Assembly: GCA_004356335.1 (NCBI GenBank) | Contig: SMXP01000021.1 | Location: forward strand, 1 to 40,322 | Direction: 5' to 3' | Length of the DNA stretch: 40,322 nt | Origin: Alphaproteobacteria bacterium | GTDB taxonomy: Bacteria > Pseudomonadota > Alphaproteobacteria > SMXP01 | Shown: positions 23,552 through 35,949 of the stretch, piece by piece | Layout: each line of letters opens with the position of its first letter | How positions within the stretch are numbered: position 1 is the stretch's first letter | Position numbers and translations under genes: made by a program | The notes under the pieces: generated by a model | Told to the model about the DNA's origin: nothing | Databases searched by the model: none | Seen by the model: only the letters and a program-made list of their open reading frames with translations

Positions 23552-24964
23552 ATGAGTCCTGCGGGGATAATGGTGGCGGCTGTGCTGAGCAGCATGGCGC
23601 TGGTGTTGCCGGCTTGGGCGGGCGCCGACACCGATTGCTGCAATGCCATCGAGGAATTGCAGCGCCAGATTTTGCTGCTTCAAGCGCAGATCGATGAGCT
23701 CAAGGCACAACAGGAAGCCCAAGACGGCGATGGAAGTGACATTCAAGTGAAATGGCAGGGGGCGCCTGAAATTTCGAGCGCCGACGGCGATTTCAAATTT
23801 AAGGTCCGTGGTCGTTTATATGCGGATTACGGCACCATGGACGGCCATACGTTCGGCGATCCCAGCCCCGATCCCTATAATCACGGCACCGAGTTGCGCA
23901 CCGCACGCCTGGGCGTAGAAGGTCAGATCTTTGGTCATACGAAGTATAGGTTTGAAGCCGATTTCGCCGGCGGCACCGACGATGTGGAAGTTAAGGACGC
24001 CTATCTGCAATGGGATTTGAGCCCGGCCAGCCTCACCATAGGCCAGTTCAAGACCCCTAATTCATTGGAAGAGCAAACCAGTTCCCGCTTTACCAGCTTT
24101 ATGGAGCGGGCCGCCTTTACCGATTCCTTCGGCCTGGCCCGGCAAGTGGGGATCGGCGTCGGCTTTAAGGGCGACAATTGGACTCTCAAGGCCGGCGGCT
24201 TCGGCGAAAACCTGCATGCCGAGACCGACTTTGAAGAAGGCTGGACCGTTGCCGCCCGCGGCACCTTCGCGCCCATCGCCGTCGGCAACAAAGCAGTCCA
24301 TTTAGGCGCCTCGGTGCGCTGGCGCTGGCGCTCCGAAGATGACCCCTCAACCGATTATGGGGTGCGGCCGCTCATCCATATGGCGTCTGAGAAATTTGTC
24401 GGCCTCAAGGGCCTGCCGGTGGACCAAGACCTCTTCTGGGGCGTCGAGGCGGCCGGCGTCTGGGGTCCGGTCTCAATCCAAGGCGAATATGCCATGCTCA
24501 ATGTGGATTTCGAGCACAGCACGGGGGGGCTCGGGGCCTTCCTGCCGGGACAAAACTTTGACAGGACTGATCCCGACTTTGCCGGCTGGTATATTGGCGG
24601 TTCTGTCTTCCTGACCGGTGAGAGCCGCACTTATAAGGCGGACAAAGGGGCGTTTGATCGCATTGAGGTCAAGAGCCCGGTCAATGACGGCGGCATGGGC
24701 GCGTGGCAACTGGCACTGCGCTATGATTCCCTTGATCTCAATGATGACGGGGTCAATCTGGGCGAACAAGACGCCCTGGTTGTCGGGATCAATTGGTATT
24801 TCAACAATTACACCCGTCTTATGGTCAATTACATCCGTGCGAATGTGACGGCGCCATCCGAACTGACTTTGATGTTGCCCACGGGCGAATCCGCCATCAT
24901 CGGCGGCACCCCCACCGACAACGACATCGAGTCCGTCGGCGTCCGTGCTCAAATCGATTGGTGA
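23552..24964 (+). CDS. OprO/OprP-family phosphate-selective porin
   Basis: ORF 23498..24964. The likely start is ATG 23552 (MSPAGIMVAAVLSSMALVLPAWA signal peptide). It has an N-terminal coiled coil, then FKFKVRGRLYADY, alternating beta-strand periodicity, and a C-terminal ..VRAQIDW. It lies next to the pst genes. Confidence 0.8.
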   Translation: MSPAGIMVAAVLSSMALVLPAWAGADTDCCNAIEELQRQILLLQAQIDELKAQQEAQDGDGSDIQVKWQGAPEISSADGDFKFKVRGRLYADYGTMDGHTFGDPSPDPYNHGTELRTARLGVEGQIFGHTKYRFEADFAGGTDDVEVKDAYLQWDLSPASLTIGQFKTPNSLEEQTSSRFTSFMERAAFTDSFGLARQVGIGVGFKGDNWTLKAGGFGENLHAETDFEEGWTVAARGTFAPIAVGNKAVHLGASVRWRWRSEDDPSTDYGVRPLIHMASEKFVGLKGLPVDQDLFWGVEAAGVWGPVSIQGEYAMLNVDFEHSTGGLGAFLPGQNFDRTDPDFAGWYIGGSVFLTGESRTYKADKGAFDRIEVKSPVNDGGMGAWQLALRYDSLDLNDDGVNLGEQDALVVGINWYFNNYTRLMVNYIRANVTAPSELTLMLPTGESAIIGGTPTDNDIESVGVRAQIDW

Positions 24965-25052
24965 TCTCAAACCGCCGCGCATCCATGCGAACACGACAAA
25001 CCAGCAGGCGCCTTATTTTCCCCTTAGGCGCTTGCTTTCTTTTGCAATATCC

Positions 25053-25096
25053 CTGTCACCAAACCATAATATTTGCATTACAAAACTGTCACAAAG
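25053..25096 (+). promoter_or_regulatory. Candidate Pho-box array upstream of pstS
   Basis: Four 11-bp phased units: CTGTCACcaaa / ccataatattt / gcattacaaaa / CTGTCACaaag. Units 1 and 4 match the CTGTCA(T/C) PhoB half-site, while units 2-3 are weak. This arrangement is atypical for a Pho box. Confidence 0.35.
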
Positions 25097-25151
25097 GCGC
25101 GTCATGATGCTCACAGATCAAACCAGGGATTTGTCTCGCCATCCTCCCGCC

Positions 25152-25257
25152 TTAGGGTCTTTCCGGTTTTGATAGAATCAAAACCTGACCCTAAGTTATC
25201 GTTTTGTCGTGTTTCCGGACGGAAAACCGGTATCCACTTTTCCTGGAAACACTCTAG
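25152..25257. repeat. Mosaic hairpin repeat locus R8 (module B, inverted)
   Basis: ttagggtctttccggttttgatagaatcaaaacctgaccctaa..gtgtttccggacggaaaaccggtatccacttttcctggaaacactctag. It sits between the candidate Pho box and the pstS start. Confidence 0.9.
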
Positions 25258-25296
25258 AGGAGCCGGACCGTCCCAACAATTAGAGCAGAGGATAAG

Positions 25297-26172
25297 GTGA
25301 TTAGTAAAAGACTATTGTTAGTAGGGATGACGGTGGGCGCGGTCTTTCTGTCAGCCTCTGTCCAGGCGCGTGTTTTGATCCAGAACAAGGGGTCGGACAC
25401 TTTGGTCAATGTGGCGCAGGCGTGGGCCGAAGCCTACCAGACCATCGATCCCGACGTCGCCGTGGCGGTCTCGGGCGGTGGCTCGGGCACGGGAATCGCT
25501 GCATTGATCAACGGAACCGTGGATCTGGCCAATACCAGCCGCGCCATGAAACAAAAGGAAATCGACTTAGCTCGATCTAAAGGGCAGAATCCGGTACAGC
25601 ATATTGTGGGTTACGATGCGCTTGTGGTCTATTTACACAAAGACAATCCCGCCGAATCACTGTCCATCCCTCAATTAGCCGAAATCTATGGGAAATACGG
25701 CGAGACGGAGAATTGGTCACAGCTGAATATCGAGATACCCGGTTGCAAGGGTCAGGAAATGGTCATCGTGAGTCGCCAGAATAATTCGGGATCCTATGTC
25801 TATTTTCGCCAAGCCGTGCTGGGCAAGATGCGCGATTACAAAATGGGTACCCGCGATATGCACGGATCAAAGGACGTTGTGGAATTGGTCGAGAACACCC
25901 CCTGCGCCATTGGCTTTAGCGGCCTAGCTTACGCCACACCCGAGGTCAAATTGGCATGCATTGCGATGGAAGACGGCGCCCCTTGCGTGATGCCATCGGT
26001 TGAGACCGCCCTCGACCGTAGCTATCCGATCGCACGACCGCTTTTTATGTACACCAATGGCGAACCAACCGGTAAAATTCAGGAATATTTGAATTGGATC
26101 CTCAGCGATGAAGGGCAATGTATCATCCGCAAGAAGGGATACGCACCGGTGCAGAATGTGACATGCAATTGA
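25297..26172 (+). CDS. pstS: phosphate ABC transporter substrate-binding protein PstS
   Basis: 291 aa. It has a signal peptide, GSDTLVNVAQAWAEAY, the phosphate-binding SGGGSGTGIAAL, and NNSGSY. Confidence 0.85.
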   Translation: MISKRLLLVGMTVGAVFLSASVQARVLIQNKGSDTLVNVAQAWAEAYQTIDPDVAVAVSGGGSGTGIAALINGTVDLANTSRAMKQKEIDLARSKGQNPVQHIVGYDALVVYLHKDNPAESLSIPQLAEIYGKYGETENWSQLNIEIPGCKGQEMVIVSRQNNSGSYVYFRQAVLGKMRDYKMGTRDMHGSKDVVELVENTPCAIGFSGLAYATPEVKLACIAMEDGAPCVMPSVETALDRSYPIARPLFMYTNGEPTGKIQEYLNWILSDEGQCIIRKKGYAPVQNVTCN

Positions 26173-26317
26173 AACCACAGACACCTAAGCGGACGCAAAC
26201 TCACTGAGTTAGTTTTGGGCGGGGGGATCAACCGGTAGCGGCTGCCTTGCCGCCTCGCTCCGCTAGGCACTGGGACTGCGGCAGTTTTCGAGGCAGAACG
26301 CAGAACATAGAATAATC

Positions 26318-27403
26318 ATGTCCCTATATGAAGAACGCCTGACCAAAGACCTCGACCGGATGAAAAACGAGATCACGGTTCTTGGGACTTGGGTCGTGCA
26401 AGCTTTGCGCGATGCGGTGCACGCACATCTTGAAGGCAACACGAAGCTCGCCAACGAAACCATCCTTGGCGACAAACGGATCAACCGCAAGAAAAACCAG
26501 ATCAATAAACTGGCCTATGCCTTTATGGCGGTTCATCTGCCGAGCGCCGGCCATCTGCGCAAAGTCGCCTCCATAATGCGGATTGTCAACGAGCTGGAGC
26601 GAATTGGCGATTATGCGGTCATCATCGCCCGGGAGGCCCTGCAACTTCCCCATCCCCCCACCGGGCAACTCAGAGAAAAAATGGAACAGATGGCACGCCA
26701 AGCCGAAACCGCCTTGGAGCAAGCCATGACCGCATTCAACACAAACGACGTAGAACTGGCACAGAAAGCCCGTGCTATCGCCTCACAGTCAAAGGACCGG
26801 GCAGGCAGAGCTTTCGACGATTTGGTCTTAGAAGGTGAGAAGCAAGAGGAACAAATCCGCTATCTCTTCGATATGCTCATCACTCTGGATCGACTGAAAC
26901 GCGTAAGCGATCGCGCCAAAAATATATGTGAGGAAACCAGCTTCACCGTAACCGGTAAAACCAAGAAGCGGAAGGTTTACAAAATCCTCTTTCTCGATCC
27001 GGAAAATAACTGCCAAAGCCAGATCGCCGAAGCTTTGGCACGCAGAAATTATCCAAATAGTGGCGAATATAGCAGCGCCGGTCGCTCCAAAGAGGCAAAC
27101 CCGGCGCTCGGTCTAATAGAATTCATGGAAACTAAGGGCCTCGCTGTTTCACCTATCACACGACAAGTGGTGGGGCCCCATATCGACAATGCTGCTGCTT
27201 ACGACATTATTGTGAGCTTGAATGGTCCGGTAAGCGACTATTTCCCAACTCAGCCGTTCCGCACTGTCTTTTTGGAATGGGATGTCGGACAGGCTCCAAA
27301 CAGCCCGGCCGAAACGGATGAACACTATATCGCCATTTACCGTGAAACCACGGCCCGACTTCGAGACCTGATGGAAATGCTCCGCGGCGAAGAGGCCGAC
27401 TAA
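26318..27403 (+). CDS. PhoU-domain protein fused to a degenerate LMW-PTP/ArsC-like domain
   Basis: Residues 1-215 or so are a two-repeat PhoU (..RIVNELERIGDYAV.. and ..TLDRLKRVSDRAKNI..). The C-terminal 140 aa or so align with LMW phosphatase/ArsC, but the P-loop reads LFLDPENNCQSQIAEAL instead of ..CTGNSCRSQMAE.. (Cys to Asp, Arg to Gln). The stop abuts the pstC ATG. Confidence 0.75.
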   Translation: MSLYEERLTKDLDRMKNEITVLGTWVVQALRDAVHAHLEGNTKLANETILGDKRINRKKNQINKLAYAFMAVHLPSAGHLRKVASIMRIVNELERIGDYAVIIAREALQLPHPPTGQLREKMEQMARQAETALEQAMTAFNTNDVELAQKARAIASQSKDRAGRAFDDLVLEGEKQEEQIRYLFDMLITLDRLKRVSDRAKNICEETSFTVTGKTKKRKVYKILFLDPENNCQSQIAEALARRNYPNSGEYSSAGRSKEANPALGLIEFMETKGLAVSPITRQVVGPHIDNAAAYDIIVSLNGPVSDYFPTQPFRTVFLEWDVGQAPNSPAETDEHYIAIYRETTARLRDLMEMLRGEEAD

Positions 27404-28348
27404 ATGACCGGCACCGTCAGATCACTCGCCGCCGCCACACCGTCGGCTAGGAAACAACTCGACCAACTCGACCGTGCTTGGTACATCGATAAAATCGTTC
27501 AATTCATCGTATTTGCGAGCGGTATTTCGGCAATCATTTTCATTGTCGGGATTTTCATATTCGTCACCAAAGAGGGCTTCGGATTTATCCTCGGGGCGTT
27601 CGATTTTGCCGAGTTCTTCGGCTCACCTCGCTGGAAACCAACGTCCGAATATAATCCGACTTACGGCATTCTCGCTTTGATCGCCGGTACGGCCAGCGTG
27701 ACGGGCCTGGCTATGTTGATTGCCATTCCCTTTTCGATTGGCGCGGCCATTTACGTTGCGGAATTTGCCACCGGTAAGACCAGGGAGGCGCTCAAGGTCC
27801 TTGTGGAACTATTGGCTGCTATCCCTTCAGTCGTCTGGGGCTTTATTGCACTGAGTTTGATGAATCCTTTGATTATTGAACTGTTCGACGTTCCGGTCGG
27901 TCTCAACATACTCAATGCCGGCATCATCCTCGCTCTCATGGCGGCTCCGATTATGACATCCATTGCCGAGGATGCGCTCAAGGCGGTACCGGACCGTTAT
28001 CGCGAGGCCGCCGAAGCCCTGGGCGCAACCCGTTGGCAAGTGATCTCCAAAGTGGTGCTCCCTGCCGCCAAAAACGGCTTGCTGGGCGCGGTACTTTTAG
28101 GAGTGGGCAGAGGGTTTGGCGAAACCATGGCCGTCTTGATGGCAACCGGTCACTCGATCAATTTGCCTGATAGCATTTTTGATTCAGTGCGCGCCCTCAC
28201 AGCAACCATTGCATCAGAGCTCGGCGAGACCGTTGTCGGATCCGATCATTATCAAGCCTTGTTCACCATCGGAATTTTTCTGTTTCTGATTACCTTCGTC
28301 ATAAACCTATGTGCCGACCTTGTTGTGCGGGGCATCGGCAAAGTATAG
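27404..28348 (+). CDS. pstC: phosphate ABC transporter permease PstC
   Basis: 314 aa with six TM segments and the EAA-type loop SIAEDALKAVPDRYREAAEALGATRWQ. Confidence 0.85.
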   Translation: MTGTVRSLAAATPSARKQLDQLDRAWYIDKIVQFIVFASGISAIIFIVGIFIFVTKEGFGFILGAFDFAEFFGSPRWKPTSEYNPTYGILALIAGTASVTGLAMLIAIPFSIGAAIYVAEFATGKTREALKVLVELLAAIPSVVWGFIALSLMNPLIIELFDVPVGLNILNAGIILALMAAPIMTSIAEDALKAVPDRYREAAEALGATRWQVISKVVLPAAKNGLLGAVLLGVGRGFGETMAVLMATGHSINLPDSIFDSVRALTATIASELGETVVGSDHYQALFTIGIFLFLITFVINLCADLVVRGIGKV

Positions 28349-28367
28349 TTACGGGAACAATGCAAAG

Positions 28368-29237
28368 ATGTTCGCTGCAAGTGGTTTAAACTCTCGGAAT
28401 AATCGGCGGCAGGCCTTAATACGTATTCTCTTTATGCTTATGACCGGTCTTTTGATTCTCCCGGTCCTGATCATCCTTACCACTTTGCTCTACAAAGGCG
28501 GCCCGGCGATCTCTTTTGAATTTCTGTTCGGCAATCCGACCAACGGTATGACAGAAGGTGGTATCTTTCCGGCTTTGGTGGGCACGATTTGGCTTGTAGC
28601 GGTAGCTTTGTTGTTCTCCGTTCCGCTAGGTGTTGCCGCAGCCATTTATCTTAGCGAGTTCGCAGCGGAAAATTGGTTTACCCGTGCAATCAACCTGGCA
28701 ATCATCAATCTCGCGGGTGTGCCCTCTATCGTGCATGCGCTTTTCGGAGTCGGCGCGTTCGTTTTGTTCATGGATTTCGGCACCAGCATCTTGGCGGCGA
28801 GTTTAACCCTTGCCATCATGACATTACCGGTGGTGATCGTAGCGACCCGTGAGTCACTTCAGGCGGTACCATATGCTTTTCGTGAAGCTTGTTGGAATAT
28901 GGGCGCAACGCGCTGGCAGACAATTCGACGTGTTGTATTACCCAACGCCGTCAGCGGCATATTGACCGGTGTCATTCTTGAAGTGTCGCGCACAGCGGGC
29001 GAAACCGCACCCATCATGTTTACCGGTGCGGCCTTCTTCCTTCCCTTCTTGCCGGAAAGCGTATTCGATCAGACCATGGCCATGTCCCTGCACCTTTTCG
29101 TCATTTCCACTCAAGTGCCCGGCGTTCCTGACGAATTGCCTTTCGGGGTGGCTTTGGTGCTCATCGCTATGGTTCTGATAATGAATTCCTTTTCAATCGC
29201 GCTACGTATTTATTTGCGCGTTAACAAAAAATGGTAG
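28368..29237 (+). CDS. pstA: phosphate ABC transporter permease PstA
   Basis: ORF 28311..29237. GTG 28311 would overlap pstC by 38 nt, so I prefer ATG 28368 (MFAASGLNS..). EAA loop ATRESLQAVPYAFREACWNMGATRWQ. Confidence 0.8.
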   Translation: MFAASGLNSRNNRRQALIRILFMLMTGLLILPVLIILTTLLYKGGPAISFEFLFGNPTNGMTEGGIFPALVGTIWLVAVALLFSVPLGVAAAIYLSEFAAENWFTRAINLAIINLAGVPSIVHALFGVGAFVLFMDFGTSILAASLTLAIMTLPVVIVATRESLQAVPYAFREACWNMGATRWQTIRRVVLPNAVSGILTGVILEVSRTAGETAPIMFTGAAFFLPFLPESVFDQTMAMSLHLFVISTQVPGVPDELPFGVALVLIAMVLIMNSFSIALRIYLRVNKKW

Positions 29238-30058
29238 AGGCGTTGACCCAGAATCATCCATACGACACCGTGCCAAAACAAGCTCCTACCAAGCCGTCAT
29301 CGTCGCCCGTGAAGCTCGATATACGAAACCTATCCATAAGCTATAATGGCATTCCGGCATTGGTAGGCGTCAACCTTAAGATTTACGAGAACGAGATATT
29401 CGGAATAATTGGACCTGCGAACAGCGGTAAAACCTCGTTGCTTAAGGCCTTGAATCGCATGGACATGTTTGATTCGGCCATGACTGTGTCGGGGGAGATC
29501 CTGTTCGACGGCTATAACATTCAACGCTGGCGTAATGTTTATGCGCTACGCCGTCGCATTGGGGTGGTTTTCCCCTTGCCGGTCGGCTTGCCGATGACCG
29601 TCTATGATAATGTCGCGTTAGCGCCGCGTCTATCGGGCATTAACAACAAGGCAGAGTTAGACGAAACCGTTGAACGGTGCCTGAAGCGGGCAGCCCTATG
29701 GGACGAGGTCAAGGACCGGCTTCAATCTTTGGGCAGCCTCCTTTCCGGCGGTCAACAGCAGCGTCTAACCATCGCCCGCGCTCTGTCGCAAAACCCCGAC
29801 TTATTGATGCTTGATGAATTTTCTATTGCCGTCGATCCCGTTACAACCATGCGCATAGAGGACGTTCTGAAGGAACTTAAGAGGGAAATGACCATCATCC
29901 TCGTGACAAATCTGACACAACAGGCCCACCGGCTCGCTGAACGTATCGCATTCTTCATGAATGGAACGTGCATCGAAATTGGCGACACTGAGTCTATGTT
30001 CTCCGGAAACGTGACGGATAACCGTACAGCAGATTACATCGCCGGGCGGTTTGGTTAG
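29231..30058 (+). CDS. PstB-like ABC ATPase, catalytically degenerate paralogue
   Basis: Walker A GPANSGKT and the signature LSGGQQQRL are intact. The Q-loop reads VVFPLP (Gln to Pro), the H-loop reads LVTNLTQQA (His to Asn), and Walker B is LLMLDEF. The C-terminus ADYIAGRFG is PstB-like. Confidence 0.8.
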   Translation: MVEALTQNHPYDTVPKQAPTKPSSSPVKLDIRNLSISYNGIPALVGVNLKIYENEIFGIIGPANSGKTSLLKALNRMDMFDSAMTVSGEILFDGYNIQRWRNVYALRRRIGVVFPLPVGLPMTVYDNVALAPRLSGINNKAELDETVERCLKRAALWDEVKDRLQSLGSLLSGGQQQRLTIARALSQNPDLLMLDEFSIAVDPVTTMRIEDVLKELKREMTIILVTNLTQQAHRLAERIAFFMNGTCIEIGDTESMFSGNVTDNRTADYIAGRFG

Positions 30059-30076
30059 GAGTTCAAGGAATCGATA

Positions 30077-30910
30077 ATGGATCGGCAGGCCGTGATACGA
30101 GACGCCAAACATTCGGCGGAAGCACAGCAGAGCAGTGCAACGTCGCAATATGCCATCGTTACACAAGACCTCAATGTTTGGTACGGTGATTTTCAAGCCC
30201 TTTACGACGTCACTCTGAATATCAAAAAAGACATCATCACGTCACTCATTGGCCCCTCCGGTTGCGGAAAATCGACTTTCTTGCGCAGCATCAATCGAAT
30301 CAACGAGCGGCTGAGCTACGTTCGTATCGATGGATCAATTACGGTTTACGACCACAATATATATGGCGATCACGTCGAGTTGGCTCAGGTGCGCAAGCAG
30401 ATAGGGATGGTGTTTCAGCGGCCCAATCCGTTGCCTATTTCAATTCGTGACAACGTGCTTTTTGGATTGAGCATTCACAGCGAAAGTCGCAAGAAATTGC
30501 CCCGTAACGAGGTAGACGACATCGTCGAGCAAGCATTACAGCAGGTGCTTTTGTGGCACACCGTTAAGGACCGGCTTGGCCGTAAGGCCACCGAGTTATC
30601 GCTTGAGGAACAGCAGAAGCTCTGCATTGCCCGCCTGCTGCCGATCAAACCAACTATTCTACTGATGGACGAACCTTGTAGCGCACTGGATGCCAAGGGA
30701 ACCGAAGCGGTAGAGGAGCTGCTATGGGGATTACGGGGCCGTTATACGATTGTGATCGTCACTCACAACATGGCCCAGGCGCGGCGTGCCAGCGACGAAT
30801 GCATCTTCATGCTGATGGGAAAAGTCATCGAACATACGCCAACGGCGGAAATGTTTGTCACCCCGGCCCATAAGGAGACAGCCGATTATATCGAAGGGCG
30901 TTACGGTTAG
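30077..30910 (+). CDS. pstB: phosphate ABC transporter ATPase PstB (canonical catalytic motifs, degenerate signature)
   Basis: Canonical motifs are Walker A GPSGCGKST, Q-loop MVFQRPNP, Walker B LLMDEPCSALD and H-loop VTHNMAQA. The ABC signature reads LSLEEQQKL instead of LSGGQQQRL. Confidence 0.85.
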   Translation: MDRQAVIRDAKHSAEAQQSSATSQYAIVTQDLNVWYGDFQALYDVTLNIKKDIITSLIGPSGCGKSTFLRSINRINERLSYVRIDGSITVYDHNIYGDHVELAQVRKQIGMVFQRPNPLPISIRDNVLFGLSIHSESRKKLPRNEVDDIVEQALQQVLLWHTVKDRLGRKATELSLEEQQKLCIARLLPIKPTILLMDEPCSALDAKGTEAVEELLWGLRGRYTIVIVTHNMAQARRASDECIFMLMGKVIEHTPTAEMFVTPAHKETADYIEGRYG

Positions 30911-31049
30911 TGTCACACAGGATCATCACGTCCGGTCGGTGTTTTTCGCGCAGGTCAAGGGAATCAATAAATCCCGGAAAAGGCCTGGAAATCCGCCCGG
31001 AGCTGTGGGATGTTCTCCCAAATAGAGCAGATAAAAGTACCATTATAGT

Positions 31050-31772
31050 ATGATTAGAAAACGTTGGGTCGCCCATATCCGTTGGGCGTTATTACTTTTT
31101 GGGGCGATGAACTTGGCCGCTTGCGCGAATTTGAGGGGCGTGGTGGGCGCAGATTGCGCCCCGCCGCCGGCCGAGGCCGCTGCGGACGAAACAACGGAAG
31201 CCCCTTTGGAGAAAGAACAGCCGCTGGCCGAGGCCGCCTCTGCGGAAACAACGGAAGCCCCTTTGGAGGATGCGATGGTTGGAGAACAGCCGCCAAATCC
31301 GACACCCGAAACGAACCATAGGTTGGACGTATCGCGGCTGCAAACCGCCGATGGCCGGCTGATTCTCGGAAGCGTCGAAACCATACGACTTGATCCGTTG
31401 GGTATCATATATGAAGCGCGGATCGACACCGGCGCCGAAACCTCATCGATTGATGCGCAAAACATCGTGCTTTTCGAGCGGGACGGTAAAAGGTGGGCAC
31501 GATTTGAGCTACAGGATGCCGGTCAAAATGACCCGGTAGTGGTGGAAAAACGTATTAGACGATTTGTCTTGGTTAGCCAAATAAATAATCTGGAGCTGGA
31601 CCGCCGCCCCGTGGTTCGAATGCGTTTGCAGGTGGGTGCAACAATTGAAACCGTCGATATCAGTTTGACGAACCGTTCCCGCATGTCCTTCCCTATCTTA
31701 TTGGGGCGGGAATTTCTGCTCGACCGAGCCGTCGTTGATGTTTCCAGAAGTCATATTCAGGACTTACAATGA
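31050..31772 (+). CDS. DUF785 / putative ATP-dependent zinc protease family (retropepsin-like aspartic protease) lipoprotein
   Basis: Lipobox NLAA|C, then an acidic repeat linker, then a catalytic-type ARIDTGAETSSIDA (D-T-G) and a C-terminal ILLGREFL. This is the family usually found next to RimK-like ligases. Confidence 0.75.
   Translation: MIRKRWVAHIRWALLLFGAMNLAACANLRGVVGADCAPPPAEAAADETTEAPLEKEQPLAEAASAETTEAPLEDAMVGEQPPNPTPETNHRLDVSRLQTADGRLILGSVETIRLDPLGIIYEARIDTGAETSSIDAQNIVLFERDGKRWARFELQDAGQNDPVVVEKRIRRFVLVSQINNLELDRRPVVRMRLQVGATIETVDISLTNRSRMSFPILLGREFLLDRAVVDVSRSHIQDLQ
31170..31283 (+). repeat. In-frame 57-nt tandem duplication inside the protease linker
   Basis: gccgaggccgctgcggacgaaacaacggaagcccctttggag (31170-31211) recurs at 31227-31268. 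It encodes AEAAADETTEAPLEKEQPL / AEAASAETTEAPLEDAMVGEQP. Confidence 0.85.
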
Positions 31773-33298
31773 TCGGACTGTCTGCGTCTCGTTTGTTGTT
31801 CTTTTTTCTAGTCTTTTCATTGTTTGCGGGTGGCATCGTCCAAATACTTCACCGTCATTTGTCGTTAGGCATTCCATTACTGCCCTCGGCCAGTCGCGAT
31901 GTCTGGTTCGTTGATGCCAAAGTAACCTTTGAAGCAACCGGGGGGCCGGTTACCGTATCTTTCGCACTGCCGGCCAGCCAAACCGGTTACACATTGTTGG
32001 GAGAAACTTTAGTGTCACCGGGCTATGGTGTCTCGCTCTTACCATCCGGCGGTTTGCGTCGGGCGGAATGGACAATTGCAGACACGGACGGCACACAAAA
32101 GCTTTATTACAAGGCACAATTTGCCGCCGATAATTTGATCGTTTCCTCATCCGACTCACCGCCGTCTTTAGCATTGGAACCACCCTTATCGTTGGATGAG
32201 GTTGATCAGGCAGCAGCGCAGGAAGTTTTGACGGAGGCAATCGAGAAGTCCGCAGGACCCCTTTCACTTACGCGTCAGATTCTGAAAATTCTAACTCGGT
32301 CGCCGCCGACGCAAACCGTCGAACTCCTTCGTACAAATTTCGAGCCGGCCGATCTACTGATAACCCTGCTGACTCAAGGGGGGGTGGCGGCCCGTTCCGT
32401 GTTTGGCCTTGAATTGGAAGACGGTCGTCGGCGCAAGCGTCTGGAGAGTTTCGTTGAAGTTTTCGCGGACGGAGAATTGCATCTCTTCGATCCCGCTACG
32501 GGTGCCGAAGGACGACCCGATAACGTGCTATTGTGGGCACCGGGGGCGCTATCTATTCTCGATGTGCAAGGCGGTCGAAATTCCGACTTGACCTTTTCGA
32601 TATTATTACAGGAAGAGGCCGCTCTGAAGAGTGTTCTCACTCAATTGGACGATTTGGGGCAAGACGATTTTTCCATATATCGCTTGCCTCTCGAGGAACA
32701 AGCTTTGCTCAAGGGAATGTTTTTGATTCCCATTGGGGTCCTCGTGGTCGTCTTTATCCGTGTGATCATCGGCTTCAGAACGAGCGGTACATTCATGCCG
32801 GTTTTGCTCGCCATAGCCTTTATTCAAACGAAGTTGATACCGGGTTTGATCGGCTTTGTGCTTATTGTCGGTACCGGGCTCATTGTGAGATCTTACCTGT
32901 CGACCGTCAATCTGTTACTCGTTGCACGTATCTCGGCAACTCTCAGCGTTGTTATAGGTTTGACGATTCTATTCACGCTTCTGAGCGAACGAATGGGATT
33001 GGAGAATATTCAAAACTTCACTTTTTTCCCGCTTGTCATCATGACTTGGACCATCGAACGCATGTCCATACTTTGGGAGGAAGAAGGCCCTAAAGAAGTT
33101 TTAATCCAAGCGGCGGGAACTTTGGTGGTGGCGGTCATAGCTTATTCTCTAATGTCGACACCCATCGTTCGGCATCTTAGTTTTAATTTTCTTGGCCTGC
33201 AGCTGGTCATTCTATCCCTTATTCTTTTGATGGGCCAATATACCGGCTACCGGGTGCTTGAGCTGCACCGGTTTAGGTCTCTCGGCAAGGATGTTTGA
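31769..33298 (+). CDS. inactive-transglutaminase-like N-domain fused to a 7-TM module
   Basis: 509 aa with an N-terminal TM, a periplasmic domain of about 300 aa, then seven hydrophobic helices in the C-terminal 200 aa. ATGA overlap with the protease gene. The architecture matches the 7TM_transglut family associated with RimK-like ligases. Confidence 0.65.
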   Translation: MIGLSASRLLFFFLVFSLFAGGIVQILHRHLSLGIPLLPSASRDVWFVDAKVTFEATGGPVTVSFALPASQTGYTLLGETLVSPGYGVSLLPSGGLRRAEWTIADTDGTQKLYYKAQFAADNLIVSSSDSPPSLALEPPLSLDEVDQAAAQEVLTEAIEKSAGPLSLTRQILKILTRSPPTQTVELLRTNFEPADLLITLLTQGGVAARSVFGLELEDGRRRKRLESFVEVFADGELHLFDPATGAEGRPDNVLLWAPGALSILDVQGGRNSDLTFSILLQEEAALKSVLTQLDDLGQDDFSIYRLPLEEQALLKGMFLIPIGVLVVVFIRVIIGFRTSGTFMPVLLAIAFIQTKLIPGLIGFVLIVGTGLIVRSYLSTVNLLLVARISATLSVVIGLTILFTLLSERMGLENIQNFTFFPLVIMTWTIERMSILWEEEGPKEVLIQAAGTLVVAVIAYSLMSTPIVRHLSFNFLGLQLVILSLILLMGQYTGYRVLELHRFRSLGKDV

Positions 33299-34248
33299 TG
33301 TTCAATTTCATAAAACGTCTGCGCAAGAGAGGAATCCTGAGCATGAATCAACGGAATGTCCGGTACATAGGACAATACAATGACCGTCGCCTCTACCCGC
33401 TGGTCGATGACAAGCTGAAAACAAAGCTCTTGGCTACCGAGCATAACGTCAACGTGCCCGGCCTCATTGGAACAATTCAATATTACCACGAAACCCGACT
33501 CATTGATCGCATCATAGGGCAGCGCAGCGGTTTTGTTATCAAGCCGGCCAGAGGCTCAGGTGGAAAAGGAATTCTTGTGATTGTCGGCAGCAAAGGTGAG
33601 GCGTATTTAAGATCTAACGGCTCGGTTGTGACCCTGCCCGATATCCGGCGCCATTTATCGAATATTTTGAGTGGCCTATACAGTCTTGGCGGCAGTCAAG
33701 ATGTCGCCATCATCGAGGAATTGATTCATTCCGATCCACGGCTGGAACCTTACACCCATGAGGGTGTGCCCGATATTCGGGTCATCGTTTTCAAAGGCTT
33801 TCCCGTTATGGCCATGATACGCTTGGCCACCCGCCAATCGGCCGGCCGGGCCAACTTGCATCAGGGGGCCGTGGGTGTGGGTCTTGATTTAGCGGCGGGC
33901 CGGGCTTTGGGCGGTGTGCAATTCAATGCGCCCATAGAGATCCACCCCGACACCGGAGCAACTTTAAAAAATCTCTTTATTCCGAAATGGGAAGAACTGC
34001 TGGAGCTGTCAGCCAAATGTTTCGACATGTCCAATTTCGGTTATTTGGGGTGCGATTTCGTGCTCGATGAGTCTCACGGGCCTTTGCTGCTCGAATTGAA
34101 CGCGCGCCCGGGTCTTGCCATCCAAATCGCCAATCAAAGCGGATTGTTGCTTGCCCTCAATCACATCGAACAGGGTCGCGCGCCCAAAAATCTCTCCCCT
34201 AAACAAAGAGCATCTTACGCAATCGACAAATTGGCGAAACTATCCTGA
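33298..34248 (+). CDS. alpha-L-glutamate-ligase-like (RimK-related) ATP-grasp protein
   Basis: The start ATG 33298 overlaps the upstream TGA (TGATG). It has GILSMNQRNVRYIGQYNDRRLYPLVDDKLKTK and the ATP-grasp core FVIKPARGSGGKGI..DIRVIVF..ANLHQGAVGVG..GCDFVLD..GPLLLELNARPG. Confidence 0.8.
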   Translation: MFNFIKRLRKRGILSMNQRNVRYIGQYNDRRLYPLVDDKLKTKLLATEHNVNVPGLIGTIQYYHETRLIDRIIGQRSGFVIKPARGSGGKGILVIVGSKGEAYLRSNGSVVTLPDIRRHLSNILSGLYSLGGSQDVAIIEELIHSDPRLEPYTHEGVPDIRVIVFKGFPVMAMIRLATRQSAGRANLHQGAVGVGLDLAAGRALGGVQFNAPIEIHPDTGATLKNLFIPKWEELLELSAKCFDMSNFGYLGCDFVLDESHGPLLLELNARPGLAIQIANQSGLLLALNHIEQGRAPKNLSPKQRASYAIDKLAKLS

Positions 34249-34282
34249 TTCATTTGCCTCGCATGCCGTCATTTTGAACATT

Positions 34283-34490
34283 CTAGACCACGTTCACAAT
34301 TCATTGAATCGGGAACGCGGTCTAGATTTCCTATTGGTCGCGCATTCGAACCCAAAAACCGCGTACACTTTTTGTGAATGCGCTCTAGAGCATTTCCGAA
34401 CTTAACAGAATCGCGGAAACGCTCTAAGTTCTTGTTTGGTCGCGCCGTTTGCGCGCAAAACCGCACACACTTTTGCGCACGGCGCTCTAG
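34283..34490. repeat. Mosaic hairpin repeat locus R9a (modules D + A + E + A-like variant)
   Basis: Four consecutive hairpins bounded by CTAG and joined by linkers atttcctattggtc / gttcttgtttggtc. The last unit, gcgccgtttgcgcgcaaaaccgcacacacttttgcgcacggcgctctag, is a diverged module A. Confidence 0.9.
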
Positions 34491-34594
34491 ACACCTGTAA
34501 GAAGAAACGATAACGCCGTATCCCCGAGAAAATCATCTGCAACCGCCGCGCCAATTCTATGCCAGACAAGTATTGCTCTAACGGAAATAGGCCT

Positions 34595-34699
34595 TAGAGT
34601 GTTTCCAGGAAAAGTGGCCCCCGGTTTTCCGTCCGGAAACACGACAAAACAATAACTTATGGTCAGGTTTTGATTCCATCAAAACCGGAAAGACCCTAG
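34595..34699. repeat. Mosaic hairpin repeat locus R9b (module B)
   Basis: tagagtgtttccaggaaaagtggcccccggttttccgtccggaaacacgacaaaacaataacttatggtcaggttttgattccatcaaaaccggaaagaccctag. Confidence 0.9.
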
Positions 34700-34738
34700 A
34701 ATGGCCGTTTCGGTACGACCTCAACCATAAGAGAAACG

Positions 34739-35200
34739 ATGATTGAAATCGAAGAGATCACGACCAACAAGGCTGGGATTTGCCGCACGATTCTGGAAGC
34801 TCTTCCAGACCGGTTCGGCAATCAAAGAGTTGTCGAGCTCATTGTTAAAGAGGCTCCATTGCTATCTATGCTTGGCGCGCGTGACGGCGACGACTATGTG
34901 GGTATGATGACTGTTAAGCGGCAAACACCACAGACAATTGAAATTAGGGCCTTGGGTGTGATGCCCGATCGCCATCGGCAGGGGATCGGCCGGGCCTTGA
35001 TCCAAGAAGTGGAAAGCTACGCCATACAACAAGGGGCAGTCCTGCTTTCATTGAAGACCGTTGGCCCGTCAGATCCCAATCCGATCTACCAAAACACTCG
35101 TGCCTTTTACCATGCTCTCGGATTTGTCCAAGTTGAAGAACTGCCTCTCTGGGGGCCCGATGCAGCCTGCTTGTTGATGGTTAAGTCGTTAAAGCCGTGA
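34739..35200 (+). CDS. GNAT-family N-acetyltransferase
   Basis: 153 aa with the acetyl-CoA-binding motif RHRQGIGRALI (Q/RxxGxG/A) and a C-terminal YHALGF. Confidence 0.8.
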   Translation: MIEIEEITTNKAGICRTILEALPDRFGNQRVVELIVKEAPLLSMLGARDGDDYVGMMTVKRQTPQTIEIRALGVMPDRHRQGIGRALIQEVESYAIQQGAVLLSLKTVGPSDPNPIYQNTRAFYHALGFVQVEELPLWGPDAACLLMVKSLKP

Positions 35201-35301
35201 TCGTTATATCGGCGTTCGGCTCTCGAACTTTTCCACCGTTTACCGAATGGATGCCGCACACGACTATATGATGGCCAGGACGAAAAAGGATCGCCGCCGC
35301 A

Positions 35302-35949
35302 ATGAGCGCCACCATAGCCGAAGATATCTTCAGAAACCTGGCCGACCAAATCTTATCCGGACGCATAGCGCCCGGCCAAAGGATGGAGGAGCAAGTCGTC
35401 GCAAATGAATTCGGCGTTTCCCGAACGCCGGTGCGGGATGCCTTGAGGCAATTGGCGGCGACGGGTCTTGTGGAGATTAAACCCAATAGGGGAGTGACCG
35501 TTGTCGACCCCCCTATTCATCAGCTCAACGACATGTTCGAGGCCCTTGGAGAGCTTGAGGCGCTGTGCGCAAGACTAAGCGCACAACGAATGAGTGACAT
35601 CGAACGCAAGAAACTTGACATGATCATGCAAGAATGTCGAACGGCGATGCGCGGCAAGAATCGTAAGAAGTACGCAGATGCGAACGAGCAGTTTCACAAA
35701 TTGATCTATCAGGGCTCCCACAATCAAACTCTAGAAGAAATCGCCGTCGCTCTTTGGCAACGGCTAGAACCTTTCCGCAGATCCAGCTTTTTCGAAGTGC
35801 GCGGTCGCATGCAAGCATCGCTCAAAGAGCATGAAGGTATTTCAAAGGCGATTCTCGCCAAAAACGCCGAGCTGGCCCACACCATGATGCGGGATCACGT
35901 AACAAATTCAAACATGAATGCCGTTGAGCACTTAACGTCTCAAAAATGA
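35302..35949 (+). CDS. GntR-family transcriptional regulator (FadR/FCD subfamily)
   Basis: The N-terminal wHTH is ..RMEEQVVANEFGVSRTPVRDALRQLAATGLVEIKPNRG. The C-terminal domain is all-helical and FCD-like, with H..I/L motifs. Confidence 0.85.
   Translation: MSATIAEDIFRNLADQILSGRIAPGQRMEEQVVANEFGVSRTPVRDALRQLAATGLVEIKPNRGVTVVDPPIHQLNDMFEALGELEALCARLSAQRMSDIERKKLDMIMQECRTAMRGKNRKKYADANEQFHKLIYQGSHNQTLEEIAVALWQRLEPFRRSSFFEVRGRMQASLKEHEGISKAILAKNAELAHTMMRDHVTNSNMNAVEHLTSQK

What the first reader, a model, noticed from the sequence alone, without database searches (positions are those of the whole stretch)
31050..34248. DUF785 aspartic protease / 7TM transglutaminase-like / RimK-like ATP-grasp triad directly downstream of the pst operon
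Seen directly: three genes are coupled by ATGA (31769-31772) and TGATG (33296-33300) overlaps. The first is a lipoprotein with a D-T-G active-site motif (ARIDTGAETSS). The second has a large periplasmic domain and seven C-terminal helices. The third has an ATP-grasp core and the alpha-L-glutamate-ligase-like N-terminus (GILSMNQRNVRYI). Established: comparative-genomics surveys of ATP-grasp amidoligases have noted this conserved neighbourhood, and RimK itself polyglutamylates ribosomal protein S6. I know of no experimentally determined substrate for this triad. Inference: it may be a membrane-associated peptide-ligation and processing system, for example one that builds or trims a poly-amino-acid tail on an envelope or secreted substrate. 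Its position 139 nt after pstB on the same strand raises possible co-expression under phosphate limitation.
Basis: partly seen in the sequence, partly recalled or inferred. Interest (0 to 1): 0.6.

Follow-up and report, generated by a model that had tools for sequence, protein, structure and literature searches.

The report
Alphaproteobacterial copy of rloABC operon
The three tightly packed genes are a copy of the rloABC envelope-stress operon, named and genetically characterised in Pseudomonas in 2025, here in an uncultured alphaproteobacterium; its position after the phosphate-transport genes is seen only in this genome, so the locus is real but ordinary.

Summary
Three same-strand genes at 31050-34248 overlap by ATGA and TGATG. 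They encode:
- a lipoprotein retropepsin-like aspartic peptidase (PF05618, D126-T-G-A);
- a cysteine-free transglutaminase-like membrane protein with seven C-terminal helices (PF14400 + PF14402);
- a RimK-related ATP-grasp ligase (TIGR02291, 419.6 bits against a cut-off of 314.2), with all ATP/Mg residues present.

This is an orthologue of rloA-rloB-rloC (Lormand et al., mBio 2025, PMC12239564). That paper showed that RloA cuts runs of at least 8 glutamates in vitro. It also showed that loss of all RloA peptidases is lethal in low-osmolarity medium, and that deleting rloB or rloC rescues this. The physiological substrate is still unknown.

The same gene order occurs in all 80 fetched loci and in three same-family genomes. 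None has pst genes next to it. I found no Pho box, promoter-like site or terminator in the 139-nt gap, and the tool for finding RNA-seq runs was closed. The phosphate link is therefore unsupported but not excluded.

The one modest point of interest is taxonomic. The operon is in 4 of 7 genomes of this alphaproteobacterial family and in 0 of 34 genomes from other families of the class.

The parts
31050..31772 (+). rloA: lipoprotein retropepsin-like aspartic peptidase (240 aa). It has a signal peptide with lipobox LAAC (Cys25, 31122-31124), an acidic Pro/Ala-rich linker (residues 26-104), and a protease domain (residues 105-238).
   Evidence: PF05618 scores 114.4 bits against a cut-off of 27. 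The best PDB sequence matches are 9g59 and 9g58 (RloA2 of P. aeruginosa, RloA of P. fluorescens) and 2pma, at E 1e-16 to 4e-12. The lipobox and the linker composition (16 D/E against 5 K/R) come.
31425..31436 (+). Active-site motif D126-T-G-A of RloA. The Ala after DTG is the retropepsin hallmark.
   Evidence: Read directly from the sequence. D-[TS]-G-A is kept in every orthologue fetched, as are R124, R186 (RPV) and R209 (NRS). By spacing and alignment to 9g58/9g59, these three arginines correspond to the poly-Glu-binding K46, R114 and R137 of P. aeruginosa RloA.
31769..33298 (+). rloB: inner-membrane protein (509 aa). It has an N-terminal helix (residues 9-27), a periplasmic transglutaminase-like domain without any cysteine, and a C-terminal seven-helix block (about residues 308-503).
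   Evidence: PF14400 scores 153.2 bits and PF14402 scores 312.6 bits. The protein has 0 Cys, and the hydropathy segments are. The AlphaFold model has pLDDT 76.1. Its external domain matches 3isr, a putative cysteine protease with a transglutaminase-like fold (E 2e-9). The helical block has no significant PDB match.
33298..34248 (+). rloC: cytoplasmic RimK-related ATP-grasp ligase (316 aa from ATG 33298, or 317 aa from TTG 33295).
   Evidence: TIGR02291 scores 419.6 bits against a cut-off of 314.2, and PF14397 scores 305.1 bits. K83, D160-I-R162, N187-L-H189, D254, E267 and N269 are invariant in 15 orthologues and align with the matching RimK blocks. The model has pLDDT 88.2, and its best fold matches are RimK 5zct (E 5.5e-11) and ArgX/LysX. 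There are no hydrophobic segments.
30911..31049 (+). 139-nt gap between pstB2 and rloA. No recognisable promoter, terminator or Pho box.
   Evidence: The consensus scan gives no site inside the gap. The RNA fold is no more stable than shuffles (z = 0.08). The Pho-box pattern has no match there, and there is no Rfam match.
30077..30910 (+). pstB2, the last gene of the upstream pst operon. This is context only and not part of the rlo system.
   Evidence: TIGR00972 scores 317.7 bits. Adjacency to rlo is seen only in this genome.

Best explanation
The locus is an orthologue of the rloABC operon.

Shown here by sequence, profile and model:
- RloA is a secreted, lipid-anchored retropepsin-like aspartic peptidase. 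Its catalytic D-T-G-A motif and the three basic residues that bind poly-glutamate in the Pseudomonas enzyme are intact.
- RloB is an inner-membrane protein with a cysteine-free, hence non-catalytic, transglutaminase-like domain in the periplasm and a seven-helix block.
- RloC is a soluble cytoplasmic ATP-grasp amino-acid ligase whose nearest solved relative is the poly-alpha-L-glutamate synthetase RimK.

Taken from the published Pseudomonas work:
- RloA cuts runs of 8 or more glutamates.
- Cells without RloA peptidases die in low-osmolarity medium.
- Removing RloB or RloC rescues them.

Inferred mechanism (about 35-40% likely in this form): RloC uses ATP to build a glutamate-rich alpha-linked chain at the inner face of the membrane. 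RloB is needed to hold that product or pass it to the periplasmic side. RloA, tethered by its roughly 80-residue acidic linker, trims or degrades it, so that the product does not build up to harmful levels.

The position behind the pst operon is most likely a local accident of gene order in this genome.
For: Domain and family matches:
- PF05618; PF14400 + PF14402; PF14397 and TIGR02291 above its cut-off.
- Among NCBIfam models, the RloA3/RloA2/RloA and RloB models are the best hits for genes 1 and 2.
- RloA matches the Rlo crystal structures 9g58/9g59.

Conservation:
- The A-B-C gene order is kept in 80 of 80 fetched loci and in three same-family genomes.
- Packing is tight family-wide.
- Catalytic residues are kept in RloA and RloC.

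Structure:
- RloB has no Cys and a transglutaminase-like fold.
- The RloC model is nearest to RimK.

Published genetics and biochemistry: PMC12239564.

Against a pst link: there are no Pst genes near rlo in any other locus.
Against: - The scores against the NCBIfam Rlo models are far below their cut-offs (RloA3 98.8 against 210; RloB 279.7 against 900). Those models are narrow, Pseudomonas-centred ones, so by that standard this is a distant orthologue and not an equivalog.
- The disulfide pair described for the periplasmic Pseudomonas RloA proteins is absent: the protease domain has no Cys. It is also absent from the operon-linked lipoprotein RloAs of Aeromonas, Shewanella and others.
- Nothing here or in the literature shows what RloC makes or what RloB does, so the mechanism is an inference from epistasis and homology.
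- No function was tested in this organism, which is an uncultured MAG, 78% complete.
Confidence: 0.85

Rival explanations
1. Phosphate-starvation module. In this reading rloABC is transcribed by read-through from the PhoB-controlled pst operon and works as part of the response to phosphate limitation, for example by supplying a phosphorus-free periplasmic polyanion.
For: The genes are on the same strand, 139 nt after pstB2. The gap contains no terminator-like hairpin and no recognisable own promoter.
Against: The adjacency is not conserved. No Pst gene lies within 8 kb in any of the 80 other loci. In the three same-family genomes, rlo and pstB are on different contigs, and in two of them other, divergent genes lie upstream of rloA. 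There is no Pho box in the gap. In V. cholerae the operon is reported to be under VxrAB, a cell-wall stress system, not under Pho.
Confidence: 0.1
2. Protein tail-writing system rather than a free polymer. In this reading RloC adds glutamates post-translationally to a specific membrane or envelope protein, possibly RloB itself or a partner of it. RloA then removes or shortens that tail on the periplasmic side, in analogy to RimK/RimB acting on ribosomal protein S6.
For: The nearest solved relatives of RloC include RimK, which extends the C-terminus of S6, and ArgX/LysX, which ligate onto the C-terminal Glu of a carrier protein. RloA cleaves a poly-Glu tail on S6 in vitro. The authors name this possibility.
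Against: RloC is cytoplasmic and RloA is periplasmic, so a modified tail would have to cross the membrane. The RloB C-terminus here (…HRFRSLGKDV) is basic and carries no Glu acceptor. No candidate substrate gene is conserved in the operon.
Confidence: 0.25
3. Cell-wall homeostasis system. In this reading the products act on peptidoglycan precursors, or on regulators of peptidoglycan synthases or hydrolases, and poly-Glu cleavage in vitro is only a side activity.
For: The Pseudomonas mutants show defects in cell shape, beta-lactam sensitivity and hypo-osmotic survival. D-Ala-D-Ala ligases are among the fold matches of RloC.
Against: The RloA residues that bind poly-Glu are needed for function in vivo in Pseudomonas and are conserved here. 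By both sequence and fold, RloC is closer to RimK than to Ddl or Mur ligases.
Confidence: 0.12

Closest known systems
rloABC operon of Pseudomonas aeruginosa / P. fluorescens (PA14_41690-41710-41730; Lormand et al., mBio 2025, PMC12239564)
   Same: It has the same three protein families in the same order and is tightly packed. RloA is secreted and carries D-T-G-A and the conserved basic substrate-channel residues. RloB is an inactive transglutaminase joined to 7TM. RloC is a cytoplasmic ATP-grasp ligase.
   Different: - The host is an uncultured alphaproteobacterium.
- RloA is a lipoprotein with an acidic linker of about 80 residues and lacks the disulfide pair.
- Scores to the Pseudomonas-trained NCBIfam models are well under their cut-offs.
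- There is only one RloA paralogue, and no RimB or RimK was found in the 78% complete genome.
- It lies directly after a pst operon.
Operon-linked rloABC of Aeromonadaceae, Shewanellaceae, Halomonadaceae and related Gammaproteobacteria
   Same: Most have a lipoprotein-type RloA with a long N-terminal linker and no Cys in the protease domain, as here. They show the same gene order and the same tight spacing.
   Different: Identity is only about 47-52% for RloB and 53-60% for RloC. The four alphaproteobacterial copies form their own clade on a long branch (SH-aLRT 100).
RimK-RimB (ribosomal protein S6 poly-glutamylation and trimming)
   Same: It is an ATP-grasp glutamate ligase paired with a retropepsin-like peptidase of the same Pfam family. 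RimK is the best solved match for RloC by both profile and fold.
   Different: - RimK and RimB are both cytoplasmic and have no membrane partner.
- The scores here are below the RimK (41.9 against 143.4) and RimB (64.1 against 200) cut-offs.
- The first roughly 56 residues of RloC are modelled as all-helical. From memory, RimK has an alpha/beta N-domain there; this was not compared here.

Membership tests
rloABC operon (Rlo system) | RloA: PF05618 retropepsin-like domain with catalytic D-T/S-G followed by Ala | tested here: met
   PF05618 scores 114.4 bits. D126-T-G-A is read directly from the sequence. The protein aligns to 9g58/9g59.
rloABC operon (Rlo system) | RloA is secreted (N-terminal signal peptide), unlike cytoplasmic RimB | tested here: met
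   The N-terminus is MIRKRWVAHIRWALLLFGAMNLAAC: a basic n-region, a hydrophobic core and the lipobox LAAC. This is judged by pattern only; no signal-peptide predictor was available.
rloABC operon (Rlo system) | Basic residues that coordinate poly-Glu (K46, R114, R137 of P. aeruginosa RloA) | tested here: met
   R124, R186 and R209 occupy the matching positions: 2 residues before the catalytic Asp, the RPV motif, and the D/N-R-S motif. The R186-R209 spacing of 23 equals 137-114. All three are conserved in every fetched orthologue. The R92 equivalent was not mapped.
rloABC operon (Rlo system) | Disulfide-forming Cys pair reported as conserved in periplasmic RloA orthologues | tested here: not met
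   The protease domain has no Cys. The same holds for the operon-linked lipoprotein RloAs of the fetched Gammaproteobacteria. The pair therefore appears to be a feature of the Pseudomonas-type subgroup and not of the whole family.
rloABC operon (Rlo system) | [quoted passage not shown] | tested here: met
   PF14400 scores 153.2 bits and PF14402 scores 312.6 bits. The protein has 0 Cys. The external domain of the model matches 3isr at E 2e-9.
rloABC operon (Rlo system) | RloC: cytoplasmic ATP-grasp protein of the TIGR02291 type with intact ATP/Mg residues | tested here: met
   TIGR02291 scores 419.6 bits against a cut-off of 314.2. K83, D160, R162, N187, H189, D254, E267 and N269 are invariant and align to RimK motifs. 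The fold match to RimK has E 5.5e-11.
rloABC operon (Rlo system) | Gene order rloA-rloB-rloC in one operon | tested here: met
   The genes overlap by ATGA and TGATG. The same order occurs in 80 of 80 loci and in 3 relatives.
rloABC operon (Rlo system) | NCBIfam equivalog/exception models RloA, RloA2, RloA3 and RloB reached at their curated cut-offs | tested here: not met
   The scores are 98.8 against 210 (RloA3), 81.4 against 250 (RloA2), 69.4 against 280 (RloA) and 279.7 against 900 (RloB). These are narrow models. The result marks a distant orthologue, not a different family.
rloABC operon (Rlo system) | Function: hypo-osmotic tolerance; rloB/rloC loss epistatic to rloA loss; cleavage of at least 8 Glu | not testable with these tools
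   Known only from Pseudomonas experiments.
RimK/RimB system | RimK-family ligase (TIGR00768) and cytoplasmic RimB (NF052261) at their cut-offs | tested here: not met
   TIGR00768 scores 41.9 against 143.4, and RimB scores 64.1 against 200. The protease also carries a signal peptide.
Pho regulon member | Pho box upstream, or conserved linkage to pst genes | tested here: not met
   No Pho-box-like match lies in 30911-31049. There is no pst linkage in 80 other loci or in 3 same-family genomes.

The most novel reading that the evidence does not exclude
In this alphaproteobacterium rloABC has been captured by an atypical pst operon and is read through from it. Under phosphate starvation the cell would then make and tune an RloC/RloB-dependent, phosphorus-free periplasmic polyanion (poly-alpha-glutamate). 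This would be a peptide counterpart to the swap of phosphate-containing envelope polymers for phosphate-free ones seen in other bacteria.
Probability: 0.05. Interest if true: 0.6.

Novelty: new member of a known kind. Interest (0 to 1): 0.2.

Why it matters
The chemistry of the Rlo system is still an open question: what RloC makes and what RloB does with it. In Pseudomonas the system affects osmotic tolerance, biofilm formation and beta-lactam sensitivity.

This copy adds three small points:
- It extends the known range of the operon to an alphaproteobacterial family.
- It shows that the lipoprotein, disulfide-free form of RloA is the common operon-linked form outside Pseudomonas.
- It shows that the catalytic and poly-Glu-binding residues are kept at 36-59% identity.

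It does not open a new route to the mechanism, and the phosphate link that made it look special does not survive comparison.

Tried and rejected
- Pho-box search (CTGTCAY-N4-YTGTCAY, up to 3 mismatches): 17 matches in the window against 12 expected, and none in the gap before rloA.
- The promoter/terminator scan and the RNA fold of the gap showed nothing above background.
- Rfam search at E up to 0.1 over 24500-35500 gave no match.
- Tandem Repeats Finder found no array in the rloA linker, even though the peptide motif ETTEAPLE occurs twice.
- Base composition gave no sign of recent transfer: the rlo genes have 50-55% GC against 52% for the window.
- A single-sequence search of RloC against PDB sequences found nothing. 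A profile and a fold search were needed.
I could confirm only that later papers cite it.
- I looked for RimB/RimK in the same genome. The only PF05618 hit is RloA, and the best RimK-family hit is glutathione synthase.
- The 7TM block of RloB has no significant solved structural relative, so the fold gives no clue to transport.
Full report
**What is there.** Three + strand ORFs fill 31050-34248. They are a 240-aa protein (31050-31772), a 509-aa protein (31769-33298) and a 316/317-aa protein (33298 or 33295 to 34248).
- The first pair overlaps by ATGA at 31769-31772.
- pstB2 ends at 30910, so the gap to the first gene is 139 nt.

There is one correction: the second protein has an extra N-terminal membrane helix (residues 9-27), so it has eight helices in all.

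**Family assignment.**
- Gene 1 matches PF05618 (114.4 bits).
- Gene 2 matches PF14400 (153.2 bits) and PF14402 (312.6 bits, positions 2-247 of 248).
- Gene 3 matches PF14397 (305.1 bits) and TIGR02291 (419.6 bits against a cut-off of 314.2).
- The best NCBIfam hits for genes 1 and 2 are models named RloA3/RloA2/RloA/RimB and RloB. All score well below their narrow cut-offs.

Those names led to Lormand et al., mBio 2025 (PMC12239564). That paper defines the rloABC operon of Pseudomonas aeruginosa and reports the following:
- RloA proteins are secreted retropepsin-like aspartic peptidases, with crystal structures 9G58 and 9G59.
- They cleave runs of 8 or more glutamates in vitro.
- A triple rloA mutant cannot grow in low-osmolarity medium and has biofilm, antibiotic-sensitivity and cell-shape defects.
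- Deleting rloB (inactive transglutaminase-7TM) or rloC (ATP-grasp) rescues these defects.

The physiological substrate and the activities of RloB and RloC remain unknown. Earlier notes of this scan on the same triad in Vibrio and Pseudomonas reached the same identification. I checked it independently here.

**RloA.** The N-terminus MIRKRWVAHIRWALLLFGAMNLAAC is a lipoprotein signal with Cys25. Residues 26-104 form a Pro/Ala-rich acidic linker (16 D/E against 5 K/R). The protease domain follows.
- The protein aligns to 9g59, 9g58 and 2pma at E 1e-16 to 4e-12.
- D126-T-G-A is intact.
- R124, R186 (in RPV) and R209 (in NRS) sit where the poly-Glu-binding K46, R114 and R137 of the Pseudomonas enzyme sit. 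All are kept in every orthologue I fetched.
- The disulfide pair described for the periplasmic Pseudomonas proteins is absent.

The disulfide pair is also absent from the operon-linked RloAs of Aeromonas, Shewanella, Oceanisphaera and others. Most of those are likewise lipoproteins with linkers of roughly 100 residues. The lipoprotein form is therefore the usual form outside Pseudomonas and not a peculiarity of this locus.

**RloB.** The protein contains no cysteine at all, so it cannot have a transglutaminase or papain-type catalytic triad. An AlphaFold model built on 22 orthologues (pLDDT 76.1) gives three parts: an N-terminal helix, a beta-sandwich plus alpha/beta external domain, and a helical bundle from about residue 308 to 503. 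Against the PDB, the external domain matches 3isr, a putative cysteine protease with a transglutaminase-like fold (E 2e-9). The helical block matches nothing significant.

**RloC.** There are no hydrophobic segments. A profile of 15 orthologues finds RimK as the best solved relative by sequence (5zct, 7qys, 4iwx; E about 5e-4). Three blocks align:
- DKLKTK…VIKPAxGSGGKG
- PDIRVIVF…ANLHQGA
- GxDxVLD…GPLLLELNARPGL

These blocks carry the ATP-binding Lys and the Asp/Glu/Asn metal ligands. K83, D160, R162, N187, H189, D254, E267 and N269 are invariant. The model (pLDDT 88.2) is closest in fold to RimK (E 5.5e-11), then to ArgX/LysX, Ddl and cyanophycin synthetase. The first roughly 56 residues are modelled as helices and are highly conserved. 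This may be where RloC meets RloB, but that is only an inference.

**Conservation and context.** A scan of one genome per species returned 372 confirmed relatives of RloB. All of the best 80 carry RloA-RloB-RloC in this order, with median gaps of 5 and 3 nt. None has a Pst gene within 8 kb. Within the window's own class, PF14402 is found in 4 of 7 genomes of the family and in 0 of 34 genomes from other families.

The closest copy (68% RloB identity) is titled 'Alphaproteobacteria bacterium OFTM124'. The next-closest copies are gammaproteobacterial, at about 50%. On a concatenated RloB+RloC tree the four alphaproteobacterial copies form one clade (SH-aLRT 100) on a long branch. The tree is unrooted, so the direction of any transfer is not shown. 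Composition gives no sign of recent arrival.

In the three relatives:
- rlo lies on short contigs. Divergent genes of unknown function lie upstream in two of them. In the third, only 560 bp without a PstB match lie upstream before the contig ends.
- Their pstB lies on other contigs and is only 45-48% identical to the window's pstB2.

**The phosphate idea.** The gap of 139 nt contains no terminator-like hairpin, no sigma-70-like promoter and no Pho-box-like site. Its predicted RNA structure is no more stable than shuffled sequence, and it has no Rfam match. Read-through from pstB2 is therefore possible, but nothing supports a functional tie. The lack of any conserved linkage argues for a chance neighbourhood.

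**Mechanism.** The following points are shown:
- the three enzyme/domain types;
- their predicted compartments (cytoplasm, inner membrane, periplasm with lipid anchor);
- intact catalytic residues;
- from the literature, poly-Glu cleavage by RloA and suppression of the rloA defects by loss of rloB or rloC.

From these I infer that RloC and RloB together produce something that is harmful unless RloA cuts it. The simplest candidate is an alpha-linked glutamate-rich chain, made by RloC at the membrane and exposed to the periplasm through or on RloB. I put this at roughly 35-40%. The rivals are a polyglutamylated protein substrate (about 25%) and a peptidoglycan-related role (about 12%). The identification as an rloABC orthologue I hold at about 85-90%.

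**Verdict.** However, the system is already named and partly characterised, and the feature that seemed special, its position after pst, is confined to this genome. It is a new member of a known kind, from an unusual host lineage, and of low interest.

Noticed in passing
window 29231-30058 and 30077-30910: Two tandem PstB paralogues that are only 33% identical to each other. Both score below the TIGR00972 cut-off (278.1 and 317.7 against 343.2). The best PstB in each of six same-family genomes is only 45-48% identical to PstB2, so this pst operon is an unusually divergent one.
   Followed up: partly
window 26318-27403: A PhoU protein (two PhoU repeats) fused to a C-terminal low-molecular-weight phosphatase/ArsC-like domain. 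Its gene lies between pstS and pstC and abuts the pstC start.
   Followed up: no
window 34355-34389 and 34457-34491 (also 2037, 20875, 40056, 40218): A dispersed 35-nt intergenic repeat, AAAACCGCGTACACTTTTTGTGAATGCGCTCTAGA, has 6 copies in the window against 0 expected. Two copies lie just downstream of rloC, in the 490-nt non-coding stretch before the GNAT gene.
   Followed up: partly
G000 (whole genome of the window): No RimB and no RimK were found. The only PF05618 hit is RloA, and the best RimK-family hit is glutathione synthase on contig 120. The Pseudomonas paper says most rloABC carriers also have RimB-RimK. The MAG is only 78% complete.
   Followed up: partly
L003/L088, L083/L086, L085/L087 and Halomonadaceae loci (e.g. 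L046, L048, L053): RloA in the three alphaproteobacterial relatives and in Halomonadaceae reads D-S-G-A at the active site. The window and most other loci read D-T-G-A.
   Followed up: yes
window 31125-31361 (RloA residues 26-104): The linker between the lipid anchor and the protease domain is acidic and Pro/Ala-rich. It contains the peptide motif ETTEAPLE twice, about 25 residues apart. Tandem Repeats Finder reports no DNA-level array.
   Followed up: partly
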